Source: Candidatus Saccharimonadota bacterium (GTDB lineage Bacteria > Patescibacteriota > Saccharimonadia > Saccharimonadales > Saccharimonadaceae). From it: 64,000 nucleotides of DNA. Below, in pieces: positions 6,024 through 64,000 of this stretch. The notes beneath the pieces are model-generated. The model saw only the letters and a list, made by a program, of their open reading frames with translations, had not been told where the DNA came from and ran no database searches. Each line of letters begins with the position of its first letter. The first letter of the stretch is position 1. Position numbers and translations under genes: made by a program. The stretch is from positions 2,236 to 66,235 of the forward strand of contig JAILQE010000007.1 in the NCBI GenBank assembly GCA_024699125.1, written 5' to 3'.

Positions 6024-6151
6024 CGGGAGGGGCGGGGAATCCCGGGAGGGGCAGGGAATCCCGCGCTTTGCGCGGGATGCGAACCCTATAGGCCGAACCC
6101 CATCGTCACGAATAAAAAAACAAACCCCGTTGGGGTTTCTTTTTTTATTCG
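6024..6151 (-). repeat. tRNA-Lys trailer: long hairpin abutting the CCA, plus degenerate copies of the tRNA T-arm/acceptor 3' half
   Basis: CGGGAGGGGC (6024-6033) and CCGGGAGGGGC (6042-6052) copy tRNA positions 6160-6170. CGAACCCT recurs at about 6080. The hairpin ACGAATAAAAAAACAAACCCC-gtt-GGGGTTTCTTTTTTTATTCGT ends at the CCA. Confidence 0.7.
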
Positions 6152-6228
6152 TGGTGATCCGGGAGGGGCTCGAACCCTCGACACCAAGCTTAAGAGGCTC
6201 GTGCTCTAACCAACTGAGCTACCGGACC
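6152..6228 (-). tRNA. tRNA-Lys (anticodon CTT)
   Basis: Manual cloverleaf: GGTCCGG acceptor, D arm GCTC-AGTTGGTTA-GAGC, anticodon loop CTCTTAA, T arm GAGGG-TTCGAGC-CCCTC, encoded ACCA. Confidence 0.9.
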
Positions 6229-15198: not shown

Positions 15199-15275
15199 CA
15201 AATTCGTAACGACCATAGGTCGTTTTTTTTGTTGCCTCGCAACAAAAAAGAAGCGAAGCTTCTACGAATTTGTGG
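15196..15275 (+). other. Cloverleaf-like four-way junction trailer starting at the tRNA-Met CCA
   Basis: A 13-bp outer stem (15196-15208 / 15263-15275) encloses three abutting triloop hairpins at 15209-15223 (followed by a T-run, so also a terminator), 15225-15249 and 15250-15262. Confidence 0.7.
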
Positions 15276-15373
15276 AAGGACGGCAAGCGATAATGTTTTG
15301 CTTTGCAAAACATTTAGAGCGCCGGCCTACCATGAACAGGAAAAAGGGCGACCCGAAGGCCACCCCAAGATTT

Positions 15374-16157: not shown

Positions 16158-16322
16158 CGGAAGGGACAGGATGGTGATCCAGTCTCCTAAAGCCCCCAAA
16201 TCTAAAGCAGCAGAAACTTCGTTTCTACGCATTCCTCGGGCAACAAAAATAGGAGAGCAAGCTCTCTATTTTTATTGCCTCTCGGCCTGCTGAAAAGCTG
16301 CGCTTTTCTGCTGCTTTAGACT
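16158..16322 (-). repeat. tRNA-Ser trailer: structured ~150-nt insert bounded by a 15-nt direct repeat of the tRNA 3' region
   Basis: CGGAAGGGACAGGAT at 16158-16172 equals 16326-16340. A 12-16 bp outer stem (16201-16216 / 16305-16320) encloses three hairpins. TGGTGATCC at 16172-16180 matches the tRNA-Lys 3' end. Confidence 0.7.
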
Positions 16323-16409
16323 TGGCGGAAGGGACAGGATTCGAACCTGCGAAGCTATTAACTTGCTGGTTTTCAAGACCAGTGCCATCAACCACTCGGC
16401 CACCCTTCC
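16323..16409 (-). tRNA. tRNA-Ser (anticodon TGA)
   Basis: Manual fold: GGAAGGG acceptor, anticodon loop CTTGAAA, long variable arm, T arm CAGG-TTCGAAT-CCTG, GCCA end. TGCTATAAT lies 7 nt upstream. Confidence 0.9.
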
Positions 16410-42280: not shown

Positions 42281-42354
42281 GGCACTGTGGCGGAGTGGTT
42301 ACGCAGCGGTCTGCAAAACCGCGTACACCGGTTCAATTCCGGTCGGTGCCTCCA
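42281..42354 (+). tRNA. tRNA-Cys (anticodon GCA)
   Basis: Manual fold: GGCACTG acceptor, anticodon loop CTGCAAA, T arm CCGG-TTCAATT-CCGG, TCCA end. Confidence 0.85.
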
Positions 42355-42381: not shown

Positions 42382-42444
42382 CACCGGGCTTCGCCAACGG
42401 TGCCTCCGTCTCCAAAGAGCACCGGGCTACGCCAACGGGCCTCC
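42382..42444 (+). repeat. Two tandem degenerate copies of the tRNA-Cys T-arm/acceptor 3' half
   Basis: CACCGGGCTTCGCCAACGGTGCCTCC (42382-42407) and CACCGGGCTACGCCAACGGGCCTCC (42420-42444), compared with the tRNA's CACCGGTTCAATTCCGGTCGGTGCCTCC. Confidence 0.7.
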
Positions 42445-53368: not shown

Positions 53369-53608
53369 GGGTGATCGACGGGAGGACGCTCGCTGAAGCT
53401 CGCTATCCGCCTTTGGCGGGCGAACCCTGCGGGAAGGTGATCTCGGCGGTAGTGGCTTCGCCCCTCCCTCCTCGTCACCAAATAAAAAAACAAGCCTTAC
53501 GGCTTCTTTTTTCTTTGGTGATCGACGCGTGCTTCGCACGCTACAGATCACCGGCGTTTCTCAAAAACAAAAATAAGACTTACGGCTTATTTTTGTTTTT
53601 TCTAAACT
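53369..53608 (-). repeat. tRNA-Glu trailer: three same-sense and one inverted copy of the tRNA 3' end, interleaved with long hairpins
   Basis: GGTGATC at 53370, 53437 (GGTGATCTCGGCGG, 14 nt exact) and 53518. The inverted GATCACC lies at 53546. Two hairpins carry a GCCTTACGGC / GACTTACGGC apex. A pseudo T-loop CGAACCC lies at about 53421. Confidence 0.7.
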
Positions 53609-53683
53609 TGGTGATCTCGGCGGGAGTCGAACCCGTATTGTCGGGATGAAAACCCGATGTACTAACCGCTATACTACGAGACC
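53609..53683 (-). tRNA. tRNA-Glu (anticodon TTC)
   Basis: Manual fold: GGTCTCG acceptor, anticodon stem-loop TCGGG-TTTTCAT-CCCGA, T arm CGGG-TTCGACT-CCCG, ACCA end. Confidence 0.85.
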
Positions 53684-56736: not shown

Positions 56737-58287
56737 ATGAAAAAACCAAAGACCTACCAACAAGTAATTGGTGAAACCATCGAACAAATGCGCCTCGAAA
56801 AAGGCTGGACGCAGGGCGAACTTGCCGCTGCCGTTGGTTCATCACAGTCTGCAATTCACCGCATCGAAAAAGGCGGCCAAAATATTTCGCTTGAAATGAT
56901 CAAGAAGCTTTCCGAAGCTCTTGGTAACCAAATTCTCTCTATTAATGACTCCGTTTCGCAGAGTTTTCGTATTCGCGGTGGCAAAGAGCTTGCTGGCGAG
57001 ATTACCGTTAATACTTCCAAAAACGCAGCCGTTGCTTTGCTTTGTGCGGCACTTTTGAATTCCGGCAAAACTGTTTTGCATCGTGTTGCGCGCATCGAAG
57101 AAGTCTTTCGTATTATTGAAGTTTTGGAATCGATTGGCGTAAAATGCCATTGGCAAAATCGTCATCGTGACCTTGAAATTATATCACCCCGCGAATTGAA
57201 ACTTGATGAAATGAATATTGAGGCCGCGCGCAAAACCCGTTCTATCATTATGTTCCTTGGCCCATTGCTTCATTTTTATAAAAAGTTCGAAATTCCATAT
57301 GCTGGCGGTTGTTCGCTTGGTACTCGCACGGTTGAGCCACACCTCAAAGCTTTGGAAAGCTTTGGCCTTCAGGTTGATGCTACCAAAAATAGTGGTTTTT
57401 ACAGTGTAGAAGTTGATCAAAAAACCTTGAAGAAAACTACCGACCGCCGCATTATTCTTACTGAACGTGGCGACACTGTCACTGAAAACATTTTGATGGC
57501 CGCCGCACTTTGTCCAGGCAAAACCACCATCGTGGGCGCCTCACCAAACTACATGGTGCAAGACGTTTGTTTCTTCCTCGAAAAACTTGGCGTCAAAATC
57601 AGCGGTATTGGCACCACGACTTTGGTTGTGCGTGGCCGCCAAAGATTCAATTCCGACGTTGAATACTACATTTCTGAAGACCCAATCGAAGCCATGTCGT
57701 TTATCGCCGCTGCGTTTGCTACGCATTCCGAAATTACTTTGCTTCGTGCACCAATCGAATTTTTGGAAGTAGAGCTTGAGGTTTTGAAAAACATGAACGC
57801 TAAATTTGAAATTAGCGAAGAGTATCTTTCCAACAATGGTCGTACGCGTCTTGTTGATTTGACTGTTAAAAAATCCGACCTCGTGGCGCCAATCGATAAA
57901 ATTCATCCGATGCCATTCCCGGGTCTCAATATTGACAACTTGCCATTCTTCTCGGTGATTGCCGCCGTGGCCGAAGGCCGCACTTTGATTCACGACTGGG
58001 TATTCGAAAACCGCGCCATTTACACGGCTGAACTTGCGAACTTAAATGCCAAGGTCGAGTTGCTTGACGCTCACCGCATTTACGTAGAAGGTCCAACCAA
58101 CTGGCATGCCGCTGAGCTCGTGGCTCCACAAGCTTTGCGCCCAGCCGTCGTGATTTTGATCGCGATGCTCGCCGCTCCTGGCACTTCGATTCTCCGCAAT
58201 GTTTATCCAATCAACCGCGGCTATCAAGATTTCGCTGCCCGCTTAAGACATTTAGGTGCAGACATTTCACCACTCACTGGTATTTAA
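56737..58287 (+). CDS. murA: UDP-N-acetylglucosamine 1-carboxyvinyltransferase fused to an N-terminal XRE-type HTH domain
   Basis: aa ~8-66 (IEQMRLEKGWTQGELAAAVGSSQSAIHRIEKGGQNISLEMIKKLSEAL) is an XRE HTH. From aa ~77, FRIRGGKELAGEITVNTSKNAAVALL ... YAGGCSLGTRTVEPH carries the catalytic Cys loop. TGGTATAAT lies 7 nt upstream. Confidence 0.85.
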   Translation: MKKPKTYQQVIGETIEQMRLEKGWTQGELAAAVGSSQSAIHRIEKGGQNISLEMIKKLSEALGNQILSINDSVSQSFRIRGGKELAGEITVNTSKNAAVALLCAALLNSGKTVLHRVARIEEVFRIIEVLESIGVKCHWQNRHRDLEIISPRELKLDEMNIEAARKTRSIIMFLGPLLHFYKKFEIPYAGGCSLGTRTVEPHLKALESFGLQVDATKNSGFYSVEVDQKTLKKTTDRRIILTERGDTVTENILMAAALCPGKTTIVGASPNYMVQDVCFFLEKLGVKISGIGTTTLVVRGRQRFNSDVEYYISEDPIEAMSFIAAAFATHSEITLLRAPIEFLEVELEVLKNMNAKFEISEEYLSNNGRTRLVDLTVKKSDLVAPIDKIHPMPFPGLNIDNLPFFSVIAAVAEGRTLIHDWVFENRAIYTAELANLNAKVELLDAHRIYVEGPTNWHAAELVAPQALRPAVVILIAMLAAPGTSILRNVYPINRGYQDFAARLRHLGADISPLTGI

Positions 58288-60445: not shown

Positions 60446-60498
60446 AGCTTGACTTCTTATACCTCTTGTGCTTATATATAATATATATAGGCTACACT

Positions 60499-62679
<2,181 letters not shown>

Positions 62680-62743
62680 ATTGAACAGACGTTGGCGAAG
62701 CCCGGCAGTTCCCAACAAAAATAGACTTGCTGAAGCCTATGCA

Positions 62744-62819
62744 TGGTCTGGGTGATCAGATTCGAACTGACGACCTCAGCGTCCCGAACGCTGCGCGCTA
62801 CCAACTGCGCCACACCCAG
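62744..62819 (-). tRNA. tRNA-Pro (anticodon CGG)
   Basis: Manual fold: CTGGGTG acceptor, anticodon stem-loop CAGCG-TTCGGGA-CGCTG, T arm GTCAG-TTCGAAT-CTGAT, ACCA end. TGCTATAAT lies 9 nt upstream. Confidence 0.85.
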
Positions 62820-62940
62820 ATTGGATTTATTATAGCACGAAAAAACTTAACCCTAAGTTTTAAAAACATAAGTCGCCGTTTAACAGGGAAAGAAAAAATC
62901 TTATTGATAAGATTTAAAAACTTAATATTGAGTTTCGGAA

Positions 62941-63148
62941 AGACCAGGTTTAAAAAAACTAACCAAAGTTAGTTTTCTTAAACCTGGTCTGGGTGACAGG
63001 ACTTGCCCGCCGAAGTCGGCCACAGTCCTGCTTTTTTGAAGTTTTTGTGACAACAAAAATGGGGCTTATTTTTGCTGCGCGAAAATAAAAGCCCACTGCG
63101 GATACTCAAAAAAGCCAAAGCAAGCTTTGGTTTTTATCCGTATCCTTG
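62941..63148 (-). repeat. tRNA-Pro(TGG) trailer: ~143-nt hairpin-rich insert bounded by a 21-nt exact copy of the tRNA 3' end, plus a 50-nt hairpin
   Basis: TGGTCTGGGTGACAGGACTTG at 62985-63005 equals 63149-63169. Hairpins lie at 62941-62990, 62997-63030, 63042-63060, 63058-63096 and 63099-63140. Confidence 0.75.
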
Positions 63149-63224
63149 TGGTCTGGGTGACAGGACTTGAACCTGCGACCTCGACTTCCCAAAAGTCGCG
63201 CGCTACCAACTGTGCTACACCCAG
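63149..63224 (-). tRNA. tRNA-Pro (anticodon TGG)
   Basis: Manual fold: CTGGGTG acceptor, anticodon stem-loop CGACT-TTTGGGA-AGTCG, T arm CAGG-TTCAAGT-CCTG, ACCA end. TGATATAAT lies 11 nt upstream. Confidence 0.85.
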
Positions 63225-63332
63225 ACGGTACGATTATTATATCACATTTTCCAAGAAATGGGCAAAAAACAGATGCTTTATTATGATTGTGTTATTTGCT
63301 ATAATACCATTAATTAAACGGAAATTATTTTT

Positions 63333-63950
63333 ATGGATTCAAACCCTAACACTGAACAGAATACAAACGTTAATTCTCAAGCAGCCCCTGCTCCAACGGC
63401 TCCGGTCGCACCAGCTCCAGCTCCAGCCCCAGCTCCTACTCCGGTTACGCCAGCTCCAGCCGTCCAGGCTACTGCGCCAGAAGCAAAAAAGAAGAATACG
63501 GGTCTAATTATTGCTATAGTGATAGGTTCTCTTTTAGTAATTGGGGTTATAGCTTATATAGTTGAAAAAATTCTTTTTCCTAGTGTTGTCGTAGGCGACT
63601 GGGCCTGCACGAAGTATAGCAATGCGAGCGGCACGCCAAGCGTTGAGGTTATCCTCAATAAAGACGGCTCCTACATGTATGGCAAATATGGCGATATTAA
63701 AAATAATCACTTCTCGGGCAAAACCTACGAAGCGACAAAGCTAGAAAAAGGTACAGACCTAGGCGGGGCAGTTGATTACATGATTAAGTTTGGTCCAGTT
63801 ACGGAATTTGTTTCAGACGGTGTTAAAGGCGATCCATCCGAGCACGAAGTAGACGACTTGGAGATGATTATTACTGAACAGTCTGGCAAGAGACAAGCCA
63901 CCGCTATGCATGCTCATACCTACAATACCTACAGTTGCGAAGCTAAATAA
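63333..63950 (+). CDS. Hypothetical membrane-anchored protein with an Ala/Pro-rich N-terminal tail
   Basis: APAPTAPVAPAPAPAPAPTPVTPAP, then one TM helix and a globular C-terminal part. Confidence 0.45.
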   Translation: MDSNPNTEQNTNVNSQAAPAPTAPVAPAPAPAPAPTPVTPAPAVQATAPEAKKKNTGLIIAIVIGSLLVIGVIAYIVEKILFPSVVVGDWACTKYSNASGTPSVEVILNKDGSYMYGKYGDIKNNHFSGKTYEATKLEKGTDLGGAVDYMIKFGPVTEFVSDGVKGDPSEHEVDDLEMIITEQSGKRQATAMHAHTYNTYSCEAK

Positions 63951-64000
63951 TCTTATGTTCGGCATATTCATGCTAAAATAAATATGTTAAGGAGATAGAA

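What the first reader, a model, noticed from the sequence alone, without database searches (positions are those of the whole stretch)
62941..63169. 21-nt exact duplication of the tRNA-Pro(TGG) 3' end, including CCA, flanking a hairpin-rich ~143-nt insert
**Duplication.** TGGTCTGGGTGACAGGACTTG (63149-63169) covers the CCA, the acceptor 3' strand and the T-stem 3' strand. It recurs exactly at 62985-63005.

**Insert.** The intervening DNA (63006-63148) holds four hairpins. One of them (62997-63030) uses the duplicated copy as one arm.

**Beyond the copy.** A further 50-nt near-perfect hairpin (62941-62990) has a 3' arm that overlaps the copied CCA end.

This is the clearest case in the window of a regenerated tRNA 3' end, which is the classic signature of site-specific integration. 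No integrase and no cargo gene are present.
Basis: seen in the sequence. Interest (0 to 1): 0.7.

Follow-up and report, generated by a model that had tools for sequence, protein, structure and literature searches.

The report
Repeated tRNA-end cassettes behind tRNA-Pro
The exact 21-base copy of the tRNA-Pro end is real, but it marks one of several short hairpin "cassettes" that this group of tiny bacteria (Saccharibacteria) stack, shuffle and lose behind their tRNA genes, rather than the footprint of an inserted virus or island.

Summary
Observation: confirmed. The last 21 nt of tRNA-Pro(TGG) recur exactly 143 nt downstream on the same strand. Shuffles give 0 matches. The interval is hairpin-dense (z = -7.3).

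Interpretation: only partly right. The insert is two modules found only in tRNA-Pro trailers of Ca. Nanosyncoccus-type Saccharibacteria.
- Module A (87 nt): two terminator-type hairpins.
- Module B (56 nt plus the 21-mer): a stem-loop with compensatory changes, whose 3' arm and tail are the tRNA-end copy.

Relatives carry A, B, A-B, B-A, B-B', B-A-B', A-A or neither. Close relatives differ in order and number, always with joints at the tRNA-end repeat.

Among 11 full modules the copy is 99% identical and the B body 63%. Copies behind six tRNA-Pro variants match their own tRNA. One module is a chimera.

Cognate 3'-end copies also follow tRNA-Ser, Glu, Lys, Cys, Leu and Gly (6 of 42 non-Pro tRNAs, 0 in seven controls).

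I found no integrase, no cargo gene, no viral attP and no dispersed copies.

The closest known case is the E. coli tyrT/tyrV rtT repeats, re-verified here.

Best reading: locally generated, recombination-shuffled trailer cassettes, not an integration scar. Function is inferred: termination or insulation, and a tRNA-like RNA 3' end.

The parts
63236..63265 (-). Sigma-70-like promoter of tRNA-Pro(TGG): TTGCCC, 18-nt spacer, TATAAT with an upstream TG
   Evidence: Consensus scan, 10 of 12 matches. The region is nearly identical in relatives L129, L138 and L141.
63149..63224 (-). tRNA-Pro(TGG) gene with encoded CCA
   Evidence: ARAGORN; Rfam tRNA model, 61.8 bits.
63149..63169 (-). Repeat copy 1: tRNA positions 56-76 (end of the T loop through CCA)
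63062..63148 (-). Module A (87 nt). Hairpin A1 spans 63100-63145 and has A-run and T-run flanks, making it a bidirectional intrinsic-terminator type. Hairpin A2 spans 63062-63094. The module starts right after CCA, its closing stem pairs CCAC with GTGG, and it ends in ...CCCCA.
   Evidence: Inverted repeats I3 and I17; terminator scan hit 63130->63115; folds. Homologous copies occur only in tRNA-Pro(TGG/CGG) trailers of relatives, at 85-96% identity over the aligned parts.
63006..63061 (-). Module B body. It holds a small A/T hairpin (63044-63060), an A-run, and then the 5' arm and loop of the B stem-loop, with a cUUCGg-type loop on the tRNA-sense strand.
   Evidence: Folds; alignment of 16 B modules and consensus structure; blastn finds it only in tRNA-Pro trailers; covariance model R1 finds only this site in the window, at 75.4 bits.
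62997..63030 (.). B stem-loop. Its 3' arm in tRNA sense is the first 9-10 nt of the copied 21-mer. Read on the + strand it is followed by TTTTTTGAAGTTTTTG, the form of an intrinsic terminator facing the tRNA's 3' end.
   Evidence: Three pairs show changes on both sides, and the wobble pairs fit the tRNA-sense strand.
62985..63005 (-). Repeat copy 2: the partial tRNA-Pro(TGG) 3' end that closes module B
   Evidence: Among 11 full-length B modules the copy is 99.1% identical and the body 62.7%.
62941..62990 (.). Hairpin H1 (23-bp arms). Its stem includes AGACCA of the copied tRNA end, paired with TGGTCT.
   Evidence: Inverted repeat I1; folds. In L100 the same hairpin follows the CCA of the real tRNA directly, 96.7% identical over 61 nt including the 21-mer.
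62840..62946 (-). Three short A/T-rich hairpin repeats (a 32-nt family) and the promoter region of tRNA-Pro(CGG), with a TATAAT at 62829-62834
   Evidence: Direct-repeat family D2. The promoter-proximal part is homologous in L130.
62744..62819 (-). tRNA-Pro(CGG), a paralogue 78% identical to tRNA-Pro(TGG)
   Evidence: family D1.
62680..62716 (-). Decayed B-like module behind tRNA-Pro(CGG): GTTGGGAACTG-CCGGGCTTCGCCAACG-TCTGTTCAAT. The 5' arm is complementary to CAGTTC of its own tRNA's T arm.
   Evidence: Intact counterparts with exact 26-nt copies are in L034, L080, L035 and L054.

Best explanation
**What it is.** The 21-mer is not the scar of an integrated element. It is the end-piece of a trailer cassette.

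In Ca. Nanosyncoccus-type Saccharibacteria, the DNA just behind tRNA genes is built from short structured modules.
- Each module starts right after a ...CCA.
- That copy forms the 3' arm and tail of a conserved stem-loop.

In this window the array is tRNA-Pro(TGG), then module A (two terminator-type hairpins), then module B (stem-loop plus 21-mer), then hairpin H1.

**How it arises and changes.** This is shown by comparison; the enzymology is inferred.
- Units are created, duplicated, reordered and deleted by unequal or slipped recombination. The partners are the tRNA's 3' end, its copies, and the short T-runs.
- The copy is kept identical to the adjacent tRNA by gene conversion or selection.
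- The logic is the same as for the 178-nt rtT repeats behind E. coli tyrT/tyrV.

**What it does (inferred).**
- The hairpins stop or insulate transcription in both directions around the tRNA. A1 is bidirectional. B faces incoming antisense transcription.
- Where B is co-transcribed with the tRNA, the tRNA-like end would give the trailer RNA a defined, tRNA-style 3' terminus. E. coli RttR ends in this way.
For: **1. The modules are locus-specific and shared among relatives.** A, the B body and H1 match only tRNA-Pro(TGG/CGG) trailers in the window plus about 1 Mb of relatives.

**2. Cassette behaviour.** The order downstream of tRNA-Pro(TGG) differs between genomes:

| Genome | Order |
|---|---|
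| window | A-B |
| L138 (neighbouring protein 95% identical) | B-A-B' |
| L129/L130 (87.5% nt identity) | B-B' |
| L141 | the same two modules as L129, in the opposite order |
| L128 | B*-A-B |
| L108, L045 | B-A |
| L116 | B-B' |
| L042 | A-A |
| L100 | neither; H1 follows the tRNA directly |

Three of five contigs from close relatives end at or near this tRNA.

**3. Tandem-duplication signatures.**
- L127 repeats the 21-mer plus the first 20 nt of the trailer.
- L010 has two 63-nt units behind tRNA-Leu.
- Relatives also carry 5'-partial pseudo-tRNA-plus-promoter duplications with breakpoints in the T loop.

**4. The copy is homogenised.**
- Copy 99.1% identical against body 62.7%.
- Six different tRNA-Pro 3'-end variants each have an exactly matching copy of 21-30 nt.
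- In L130, a B hairpin identical to the TGG-type carries a CGG-type tail behind tRNA-Pro(CGG).

**5. The structure is conserved.** There are compensatory pairs in B. The tRNA-Ser trailer unit is 95.6% identical between the window and L132, while the flanking genes are 81-87%.

**6. Generality.**
- 6 of 42 non-Pro tRNAs have a same-strand downstream copy of at least 10 nt of their own 3' end, against 0 in seven control comparisons.
- Over all 254 tRNAs, 39 have such a copy, against 0-1 for reverse-complement controls.
- The tRNA-Ser trailer differs between the window and L132/L134 by one whole unit bounded by the repeat.

**7. Precedent verified.** E. coli tyrV is followed by three 178-nt units. 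Each ends in a 19-nt copy of the tRNA-Tyr 3' end (A58 to CCA), and RttR ends at the first copy's CCA.

**8. Terminator features.**
Against: - No transcript data exist, so every functional statement is inference.
- In the window, two terminator-type hairpins lie between the tRNA and B. B may therefore rarely be transcribed in tRNA sense here.
- The window's array is not a simple tandem repeat: the sequence after the copy differs from the sequence after the tRNA.
- Simple duplication does not explain one regular feature. Every copy is immediately preceded by an arm complementary to its first 5-10 nt, and by a loop built on GCTTCGC or GGCTTCGCCAA. That regularity could point to a dedicated mechanism or function that I did not identify.
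- A 21-nt tract is short for RecA-type gene conversion.
- The exact identity of the copies could instead reflect frequent re-creation.
- 89 of about 116 related loci have neither module. The system is therefore clade-restricted and dispensable.
- The integrase search was crude, and the Pfam summary of neighbouring genes was truncated.
Confidence: 0.55

Rival explanations
1. **Integration scar.** An integrase-bearing island or prophage once integrated into the T loop of tRNA-Pro(TGG), regenerating the 3' end. Nearly all of it was later deleted. What remains is attL (the tRNA), 143 nt of element DNA, and attR (the displaced 21-mer). In other words, a degenerate or CIME-like remnant.
For: - The geometry is the classical one: an intact tRNA plus a same-strand copy running from the T loop to CCA.
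- The interval downstream of tRNA-Pro(TGG) varies in gene content among relatives. Gene Y and different surface proteins come and go.
- Partial tRNAs left as remnants of repeated integrations are documented in Prochlorococcus tycheposon islands (bioRxiv 10.1101/2020.12.28.424599).
- Several tRNAs in this genome carry such copies.
Against: - No integrase-like motif in the window or in about 1 Mb of relatives. Neighbouring genes are mostly housekeeping.
- Viral contigs hold no attP-type fragment.
- The inter-repeat DNA is conserved, structured and locus-specific.
- Copies are always 34-175 nt from the tRNA, and lie on the tRNA-proximal side of the variable genes, not beyond them.
- Copies track their own tRNA variant.
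- The same two-part architecture behind at least six different tRNAs would need many integrase specificities.
Confidence: 0.12
2. **Miniature mobile cassettes.** The hairpin-plus-tRNA-end units are non-autonomous cassettes. A recombinase encoded elsewhere excises and re-inserts them at tRNA T-loop or CCA sites. It would act on folded hairpin DNA, in the manner of integron attC x attI recombination.
For: - Units are reordered between close relatives, not only gained and lost (L129 against L141; window against L138).
- Every unit starts after a CCA.
- Every copy is preceded by a hairpin whose 5' arm matches the start of the copy, and whose loop carries a recurring GCTTCGC or GGCTTCGCCAA motif. 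That motif reads GCGAAGC on the other strand, which from my own knowledge is a very stable DNA mini-hairpin. The pattern holds behind tRNA-Pro, Cys and Leu.
Against: - No candidate recombinase was seen.
- Module bodies are specific to each tRNA locus rather than shared between tRNAs.
- Copy lengths vary from 10 to 42 nt, unlike a fixed crossover site.
- Wobble pairs favour an RNA-level structure on the tRNA-sense strand.
- Reordering can also result from successive unequal exchanges in an array with three or more repeats.
Confidence: 0.1
3. **Neutral by-product.** Palindrome-rich tRNA trailers are prone to replication slippage and template switching. The copies and hairpins are functionless debris that turns over quickly.
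For: - Many truncated forms exist: L067, L078, L036, L116b, L129b and L141.
- Most related species lack the modules.
- Junctions lie at T-runs and short repeats.
Against: - There are compensatory changes that keep the stems.
- Modules are as conserved as, or more conserved than, flanking coding DNA.
- The copy is 99% identical while the body is 63%.
- The same ordered architecture, a CCA-anchored hairpin domain followed by a hairpin plus copy, recurs at unrelated tRNAs.
Confidence: 0.18
4. **Chance or assembly artefact.**
For: None.
Against: - 0 matches in 100 shuffles.
- The same arrangement type appears in more than 25 independent assemblies.
Confidence: 0.01

Closest known systems
E. coli tyrT/tyrV trailer repeats (rtT locus; RttR small RNA, Rfam RF00391)
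   Same: - A same-strand copy of the tRNA's 3' end lies in the tRNA's own trailer. It starts in the T loop and ends at CCA: 19 nt in E. coli, 21 nt here.
- Units can be tandemly repeated.
- The unit also holds an inverted copy that can pair with the start of the direct copy (GGGGAAGGAT against ATCCTTCCCC in E. coli; the B 5' arm here).
- No integrase is involved.
- I verified this on NC_000913: three 178-nt units, with RttR ending at the first copy's CCA.
   Different: - There is no sequence or Rfam similarity.
- Units here are shorter (about 50-90 nt) and heterogeneous (types A, B, H1 and C).
- They are shuffled between species.
- They are present behind many different tRNAs rather than one operon.
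- In the window the copy is single, and terminator hairpins separate it from the tRNA.
Displaced tRNA fragments (attR) of tRNA-targeting integrative elements: Islander-type islands, tycheposons, and CIMEs as integrase-less remnants
   Same: - An intact tRNA plus a direct-repeat partial 3' copy.
- The repeat starts in the T loop, a known crossover sublocation (from my own knowledge of Williams 2002).
- The repeat bounds DNA that is present or absent among relatives.
- Partial tRNAs as remnants are described in bioRxiv 10.1101/2020.12.28.424599 and in the Islander abstract, PMC4383910.
   Different: - No integrase, cargo or attP donor was found.
- The inter-repeat DNA is 34-175 nt of conserved, structured, locus-specific sequence.
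- Copies co-vary with the adjacent tRNA.
REP/BIME-type mosaic palindromic elements
   Same: Short hairpin modules lie in intergenic DNA downstream of genes, combined in variable mosaics. They probably act as terminators or stabilisers.
   Different: - REP/BIME elements are dispersed in hundreds of copies with a shared consensus (from my own knowledge). These modules are confined to one tRNA family's trailers.
- These modules also contain a copy of the upstream gene's 3' end.
Integron cassette arrays (attC hairpins)
   Same: Arrays of short units. Each ends in an imperfect hairpin followed by a few bases shared with the insertion site. Units are gained, lost and reordered.
   Different: There is no IntI, no attI and no ORF cassettes. 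The shared segment is a tRNA 3' end of variable length. The resemblance is in behaviour only.

Membership tests
tRNA-targeted integrative element (island or prophage att scar) | Intact tRNA gene plus a displaced partial 3' copy in direct orientation | tested here: met
tRNA-targeted integrative element (island or prophage att scar) | Integrase (tyrosine or serine recombinase) gene, or its remnant, between or next to the repeats | tested here: not met
   Only 143 nt lie between the repeats and hold no ORF. A crude Tyr-recombinase motif regex gave 0 hits in the window plus about 1 Mb of relatives. The Pfam summary of 124 downstream ORF clusters showed housekeeping families, but the list was truncated to 25.
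tRNA-targeted integrative element (island or prophage att scar) | A matching attP in a phage, plasmid or circular element | tested here: not met
   The viral contigs hold the 21-mer only inside 7 complete tRNA-Pro genes, and the B-specific 22-mer 0 times. Plasmid and phage GenBank collections were not searched.
tRNA-targeted integrative element (island or prophage att scar) | An uninterrupted (empty) site in relatives | tested here: inconclusive
   L100 joins the tRNA's CCA directly to hairpin H1. However, its downstream context is not orthologous. Other relatives show module reshuffling rather than a simple filled-or-empty pair.
rtT-type tRNA-linked trailer repeats (E. coli tyrT/tyrV) | A copy of the tRNA 3' end (T loop to CCA) within the tRNA's own trailer, on the same strand | tested here: met
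   for the window; for E. coli.
rtT-type tRNA-linked trailer repeats (E. coli tyrT/tyrV) | Tandem repetition of the unit (trailer plus copy) | tested here: inconclusive
   Met in relatives: L127, L116, L129, and L010 for tRNA-Leu. The window has a single copy, and the sequence after the copy differs from the sequence after the tRNA.
rtT-type tRNA-linked trailer repeats (E. coli tyrT/tyrV) | Homology to Rfam RF00391 (rtT RNA) | tested here: not met
   No rtT match at E <= 10 in 62000-64000, nor at gathering threshold in the whole window.
rtT-type tRNA-linked trailer repeats (E. coli tyrT/tyrV) | A processed trailer RNA whose 3' end is the copied CCA | not testable with these tools
   This needs RNA 3'-end mapping.
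Dispersed miniature repeats (MITE, REP) | Multiple dispersed copies at unrelated loci | tested here: not met
   blastn with A, the B body and H1. The covariance model of B, run with filters off, hits only this site in the window.
Intrinsic (Rho-independent) terminator | A G+C-containing hairpin followed directly by a T-run | tested here: met
   A1 was found by the scan, 63130->63115 on the minus strand. On the + strand the B hairpin is followed by TTTTTTGAAGTTTTTG (by inspection; the scan does not list it). Activity was not tested.

The most novel reading that the evidence does not exclude
These Saccharibacteria carry a previously undescribed, lineage-wide class of structured tRNA 3'-trailer elements.
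- Each starts with a hairpin domain anchored on the tRNA's CCA.
- This is followed by a stem-loop that ends in a copy of that same tRNA's 3' end, kept identical to the tRNA.
- The elements would act as tRNA-3'-end mimics, for example as processing or termination signals, or as decoys for factors that recognise tRNA ends.
- They would move as cassettes by recombination at the tRNA-end repeat.

The tRNA-Pro 21-mer would be one member. The tRNA-Met and tRNA-Ile trailer family (model R2), and the mini-tRNA-like unit behind tRNA-Ser, would be others.
Probability: 0.25. Interest if true: 0.75.

Novelty: new variant of a known kind. Interest (0 to 1): 0.5.

Why it matters
**1. Practical.** Island-finding methods treat "tRNA plus displaced 3' fragment" as proof of integration. 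In these genomes that signature is produced many times over without any island, so it would give false calls.

**2. Biological.** In a bacterium with a small genome, about half of the tRNA genes in this window carry conserved hairpin arrays with compensatory changes, ending in a copy of their own 3' end. This points to lineage-specific handling of tRNA transcription, termination or 3'-end processing. It could be tested in cultivated TM7 co-cultures.

**3. Evolutionary.** The arrays show cassette-like gain, loss and reordering at a 21-nt repeat between species of about 87-95% identity. This makes them a compact natural system for studying short-repeat recombination and gene conversion around tRNA genes. 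It also explains why metagenome assemblies break at these tRNAs.

Tried and rejected
- **Rfam.** A scan of the region at E <= 10 and of the whole window at gathering threshold found only tRNAs. The weak miRNA-like hits merely reflect the long hairpin.
- **Viral contigs.** The 21-mer occurs only in complete tRNA-Pro genes. The B-specific 22-mer is absent.
- **Metagenome scan.** The B-specific 22-mer gave only 4 loci. In all four the module sits directly behind tRNA-Pro(TGG).
- **Dispersed-repeat (MITE) idea.** Rejected by blastn and by a covariance-model search.
- **Integrase search.** A motif regex over six-frame translations gave 0 hits. The Pfam scan of 124 downstream ORF clusters was only partly informative, because the output lists 25 of 140 families.
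- **Gene Y.** This 347-aa gene lies between the two tRNA-Pro genes in L130, L129, L085 and L100. It has no Pfam match and is not flanked by a further repeat copy, so it is not cargo of a repeat-bounded element.
- **Exact-protein look-ups.** The window's own 205-aa protein is not retrievable: one search included the stop codon, and searches were masked. Close relatives were reached through cluster members instead.
- **Reverse-transcriptase idea.** I considered priming or stops at m1A58 as the source of copy boundaries at T-loop positions 56-59. Other copies start at positions 34, 47-51 or 66, and no reverse transcriptase was seen, so I did not pursue it.
- **B as an antisense small RNA against the tRNA 3' end.** I found no convincing promoter upstream on the + strand.
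- **Literature.** Searches found no description of such trailers in Saccharibacteria or Patescibacteria. The library is incomplete, so this is weak evidence of novelty.
Full report
**1. Observation**

The window encodes two tRNA-Pro genes on the minus strand: TGG at 63149-63224 and CGG at 62744-62819 (Rfam).

The 21-mer TGGTCTGGGTGACAGGACTTG occurs at 63149-63169 and 62985-63005. The copies are identical, and the identity does not extend on either side. With up to three mismatches these are the only matches in 64 kb, and 100 shuffles gave none.

In tRNA sense the repeat is positions 56-76, from the end of the T loop to CCA. The second copy lies 143 nt downstream.

The interval and its left flank fold into five hairpins. 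The fold energy is -85 kcal/mol against -52 for shuffles (z = -7.3). No ORF lies between the repeats.

**2. Organism and relatives**

Nearly all are Candidatus Saccharibacteria, many of them named Ca. Nanosyncoccus from rumen or gut. The window has 45% G+C, CCA-encoding tRNAs and a sortase-type surface protein, which fits this placement.

The window's 205-aa neighbouring protein is identical to one recorded from a 73-kb NCBI contig.

**3. What the insert is made of**

Read in tRNA sense, the 143 nt plus the copy resolve into two modules that recur in relatives.

- **Module A (87 nt; 63062-63148).** It starts immediately after CCA and holds two hairpins. The first has A- and T-run flanks and is picked up by the terminator scan.
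- **Module B (56 nt; 63006-63061, plus the 21-mer).** It holds a small A/T hairpin, an A-run, and a stem-loop whose 3' arm is the start of the 21-mer. CACCCAGACCA is left as a tail.
- **Hairpin H1.** It follows B, and its stem includes AGACCA of the copy.

On the + strand the B stem-loop is followed by TTTTTTGAAGTTTTTG. This is the form of an intrinsic terminator that would stop transcription running towards the tRNA's 3' end.

blastn and a covariance model of B find these modules only in tRNA-Pro(TGG) and tRNA-Pro(CGG) trailers. They appear nowhere else in the window or in about 1 Mb of related sequence.

**4. Arrangements in relatives**

About 116 loci had enough downstream sequence. Of these, 89 have neither module and 27 have some combination.

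| Genome(s) | Order behind tRNA-Pro(TGG) |
|---|---|
| window | A-B |
| L014, L061, L071, L081 and others | A only |
| L085, L094, L118, L127 | B only |
| L108, L045 | B-A |
| L067, L078 | A-B' (copy truncated to 10-14 nt) |
| L116, L129/L130 | B-B' |
| L099, L138 | B-A-B' |
| L128 | B*-A-B |
| L042 | A-A |
| L050 | A followed by a partial second A |

The closest relatives I could reach are the most telling.

- **L138.** Its neighbouring protein is 95% identical and its promoter region nearly identical to the window's. Its order is tRNA-B-A-B'. The window therefore differs from it by one B unit bounded exactly by the 21-mer.
- **L129/L130 and L141.** L129/L130 are 87.5% identical to the window in flanking genes. 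L129 and L141 carry the same two modules in opposite orders.
- **Contig ends.** Three of five contigs from this cluster end at or near the tRNA. This is expected if populations are heterogeneous at this point.
- **L100.** The tRNA's CCA is joined directly to H1.

**5. The copy follows its tRNA**

- Among 11 full-length B modules, the stem-loop body is 62.7% identical on average and the 21-mer copy 99.1%.
- Behind tRNA-Pro(CGG) and tRNA-Pro(GGG) genes with six different T-stem or acceptor variants, there are analogous modules whose 21-30-nt copies match their own tRNA exactly.
- The 5' arm of the stem-loop changes in step. For example, TGACTTG pairs with CAAGTCA where the TGG type has GGACTTG pairing with CAAGTCC.
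- In L130, the second module behind tRNA-Pro(CGG) has a hairpin identical to that genome's TGG-type B, but a CGG-type tail. The switch lies inside the shared CAAGTC. This is direct evidence of recombination or gene conversion with the adjacent tRNA.
- The consensus fold of 16 B modules keeps the stem. Three pairs show changes on both sides, and the one-sided changes give G-U pairs on the tRNA-sense strand.

**6. Not only tRNA-Pro**

Four other tRNAs in the window carry same-strand copies of their own 3' ends downstream.

| tRNA | Copy length | Distance downstream |
|---|---|---|
| Ser | 15 nt | +151 |
| Glu | 18 nt, 1 mismatch | +156 |
| Lys | 11 nt | +100 |
| Cys | 10 nt | +44 |

- Relatives add tRNA-Leu(CAG), with two tandem 63-nt units, and tRNA-Gly(CCC).
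- Over 254 tRNAs, 39 have a downstream copy of at least 10 nt of their last 30 nt. Reverse-complement controls gave 0-1.
- Among the 42 non-Pro tRNAs the count is 6, against 0 in all seven controls.
- Copies mostly start in the T loop (positions 56-59). Some start at 47-51, about 34, or 66.
- Each copy is preceded by an arm complementary to its first 5-10 nt, and by a loop built on GCTTCGC, GGCTTCGCCAA or CGCTACGCGAA. That motif is otherwise rare and is concentrated in tRNA trailers.
- Folding shows a common two-part trailer. First comes a hairpin domain whose closing stem includes the tRNA's CCA. Then comes the hairpin plus copy.
- At tRNA-Ser, L132 and L134 have two such units where the window has one. 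The shared unit is 95.6% identical while the flanking genes are 81-87%.
- In L134 the extra unit looks like a mini-tRNA: acceptor stem, one hairpin, then GCCA.

**7. Tests of the integration reading**

- Viral contigs hold the 21-mer only inside complete tRNA-Pro genes. They never hold the B-specific 22-mer.
- A metagenome scan for that 22-mer found four loci, all directly behind the tRNA.
- A crude tyrosine-recombinase motif search over all six frames of the window plus loci gave no hit.
- Pfam families of genes downstream of tRNA-Pro(TGG) in relatives are mostly housekeeping, although the summary was truncated.
- The variable gene Y in L130 and others has no Pfam match. It lies beyond the copies rather than between repeats.

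Together with sections 3 to 6, this makes an integrase-mediated scar unlikely. I put it at about 0.12.

**8. Closest known case**

I re-derived the E. coli K-12 tyrT/tyrV trailer.

- Three 178-nt tandem units each end in a 19-nt copy of the tRNA-Tyr 3' end, from A58 to CCA.
- The annotated small RNA RttR ends exactly at the first copy's CCA.
- Each unit also contains an inverted copy (GGGGAAGGAT) of the start of the direct copy.

This is the same design without any integrase. The present case differs in four ways.

- It has no sequence or Rfam similarity to rtT.
- It uses short heterogeneous modules.
- The modules are shuffled between species.
- It occurs behind many tRNAs.

**9. Mechanism, with what is shown and what is inferred**

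Shown by comparison:
- The units are bounded by the tRNA-end repeat.
- They are gained, lost, duplicated and reordered between related genomes.
- The copy is homogenised against the adjacent tRNA.
- The stems are maintained by compensatory change.

Inferred:
- The events are unequal or slipped recombination between the 21-mer copies and the T-runs, plus short-tract gene conversion.
- The hairpins terminate or insulate transcription in both directions.
- When B is co-transcribed, the tRNA-like end gives the trailer RNA a defined 3' terminus, as in RttR.

Unexplained:
- Why a complementary arm and a recurring loop motif precede every copy.
- Why modules so well conserved in sequence are so unstable in arrangement.

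Because of these gaps I keep 0.10 on a trans-acting recombinase moving hairpin cassettes. I also keep 0.25 on the broader novel reading of a lineage-wide class of tRNA-3'-end-mimic trailer elements.

**10. Verdict**

The repeat is a recombination joint bounding variable DNA, but not an integration scar.
- This is a new variant of a known kind: rtT-like tRNA-linked trailer repeats.
- Interest is 0.5. The single locus is modest. The recurrent, conserved, cassette-like architecture across tRNAs is unusual, and as far as my literature searches reach it has not been described for Saccharibacteria.

Noticed in passing
window 16158-16172 (tRNA-Ser 16323-16409, -); 53436-53453 (tRNA-Glu 53609-53683, -); 6042-6052 (tRNA-Lys 6152-6228, -); 42398-42407 (tRNA-Cys 42281-42354, +): Four other tRNAs in the window have a same-strand partial copy of their own 3' end 44-173 nt downstream. 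Each copy forms the 3' arm of a hairpin. tRNA-Glu has two further short GATCACC(A) copies, and tRNA-Lys has a second GCCCCTCCCG.
   Followed up: partly
window 15199-15332 (+) behind tRNA-Met; 32266-32405 (-) behind tRNA-Ile; also L132 8024-8153, L136 12030-12164, L134 13793-13919: A conserved structured trailer family of about 135 nt. A closing stem includes the tRNA's CCA. Three short hairpins with GAA or TTC triloops follow, giving a cloverleaf-like, tRNA-sized domain. Last comes a hairpin ending in NTACCA. 18 of 37 pairs show compensatory changes in only 4 sequences. Covariance model R2 found a fifth member in L134 at 103 bits. There it follows a 66-nt non-tRNA sequence ending in GGCCTACCA. 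There is no Rfam match.
   Followed up: partly
window 32406-32482 (-): tRNA-Ile with anticodon TAT (UAU). Most bacteria read AUA with a lysidine-modified CAT tRNA, so this is an unusual decoding arrangement.
   Followed up: no
window 42386-42398, 42424-42436 (+), 62691-62703 (-): The motif GGGCT(T/A)CGCCAAC occurs only in tRNA trailers in the window: twice behind tRNA-Cys and once behind tRNA-Pro(CGG). With up to 2 mismatches there are 8 matches against 1.5 expected. In relatives it forms the loop directly 5' of the tRNA-end copies.
   Followed up: partly
L036, L124, L102, L059, L066, L029, L056, L113 (upstream of tRNA-Pro genes): 5'-partial pseudo-tRNA-Pro copies (positions 1 to about 65), followed by a TATAAT promoter and then the complete tRNA. 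These are tandem duplications of promoter plus tRNA 5' part, with the breakpoint in the T loop. They mirror the 3' copies seen downstream.
   Followed up: partly
L132 7400-7483 and L134 11148-11226, compared with window 16158-16322: The tRNA-Ser trailer has two units in relatives and one in the window. The difference is a whole-unit indel bounded by the 18-nt tRNA-end repeat. The shared unit is 95.6% identical while flanking genes are 81-87%. The extra unit in L134 resembles a mini-tRNA: GGAAGG...CCCTTCC-G-CCA.
   Followed up: partly
window 62680-63148 compared with L130 4348-6174, and with L129, L085, L100, L116, L067, L138, L141: The interval between tRNA-Pro(TGG) and tRNA-Pro(CGG) varies in gene content among relatives. 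Some have a 347-aa protein with no Pfam match (gene Y). Others have convergent glycine-rich surface proteins or other genes. The window has none.
   Followed up: partly
L139, L140, L142; also L023 and L072 from one MAG: Several metagenome contigs of close relatives end inside or right next to tRNA-Pro(TGG). This suggests assembly-graph branching caused by population heterogeneity in the trailer.
   Followed up: no
window 56737-58287 (+): A MurA-like ORF of 516 aa carries an N-terminal helix-turn-helix-like extension of about 70 aa. This was judged by reading the sequence, not by a family search.
   Followed up: no
window 60466-62679 (+): A surface protein with a CBM_X2 domain, a long (PE)n repeat and a C-terminal VPNTG sortase-like motif plus a membrane anchor. 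Its homologue in L130 has a shorter repeat.
   Followed up: no
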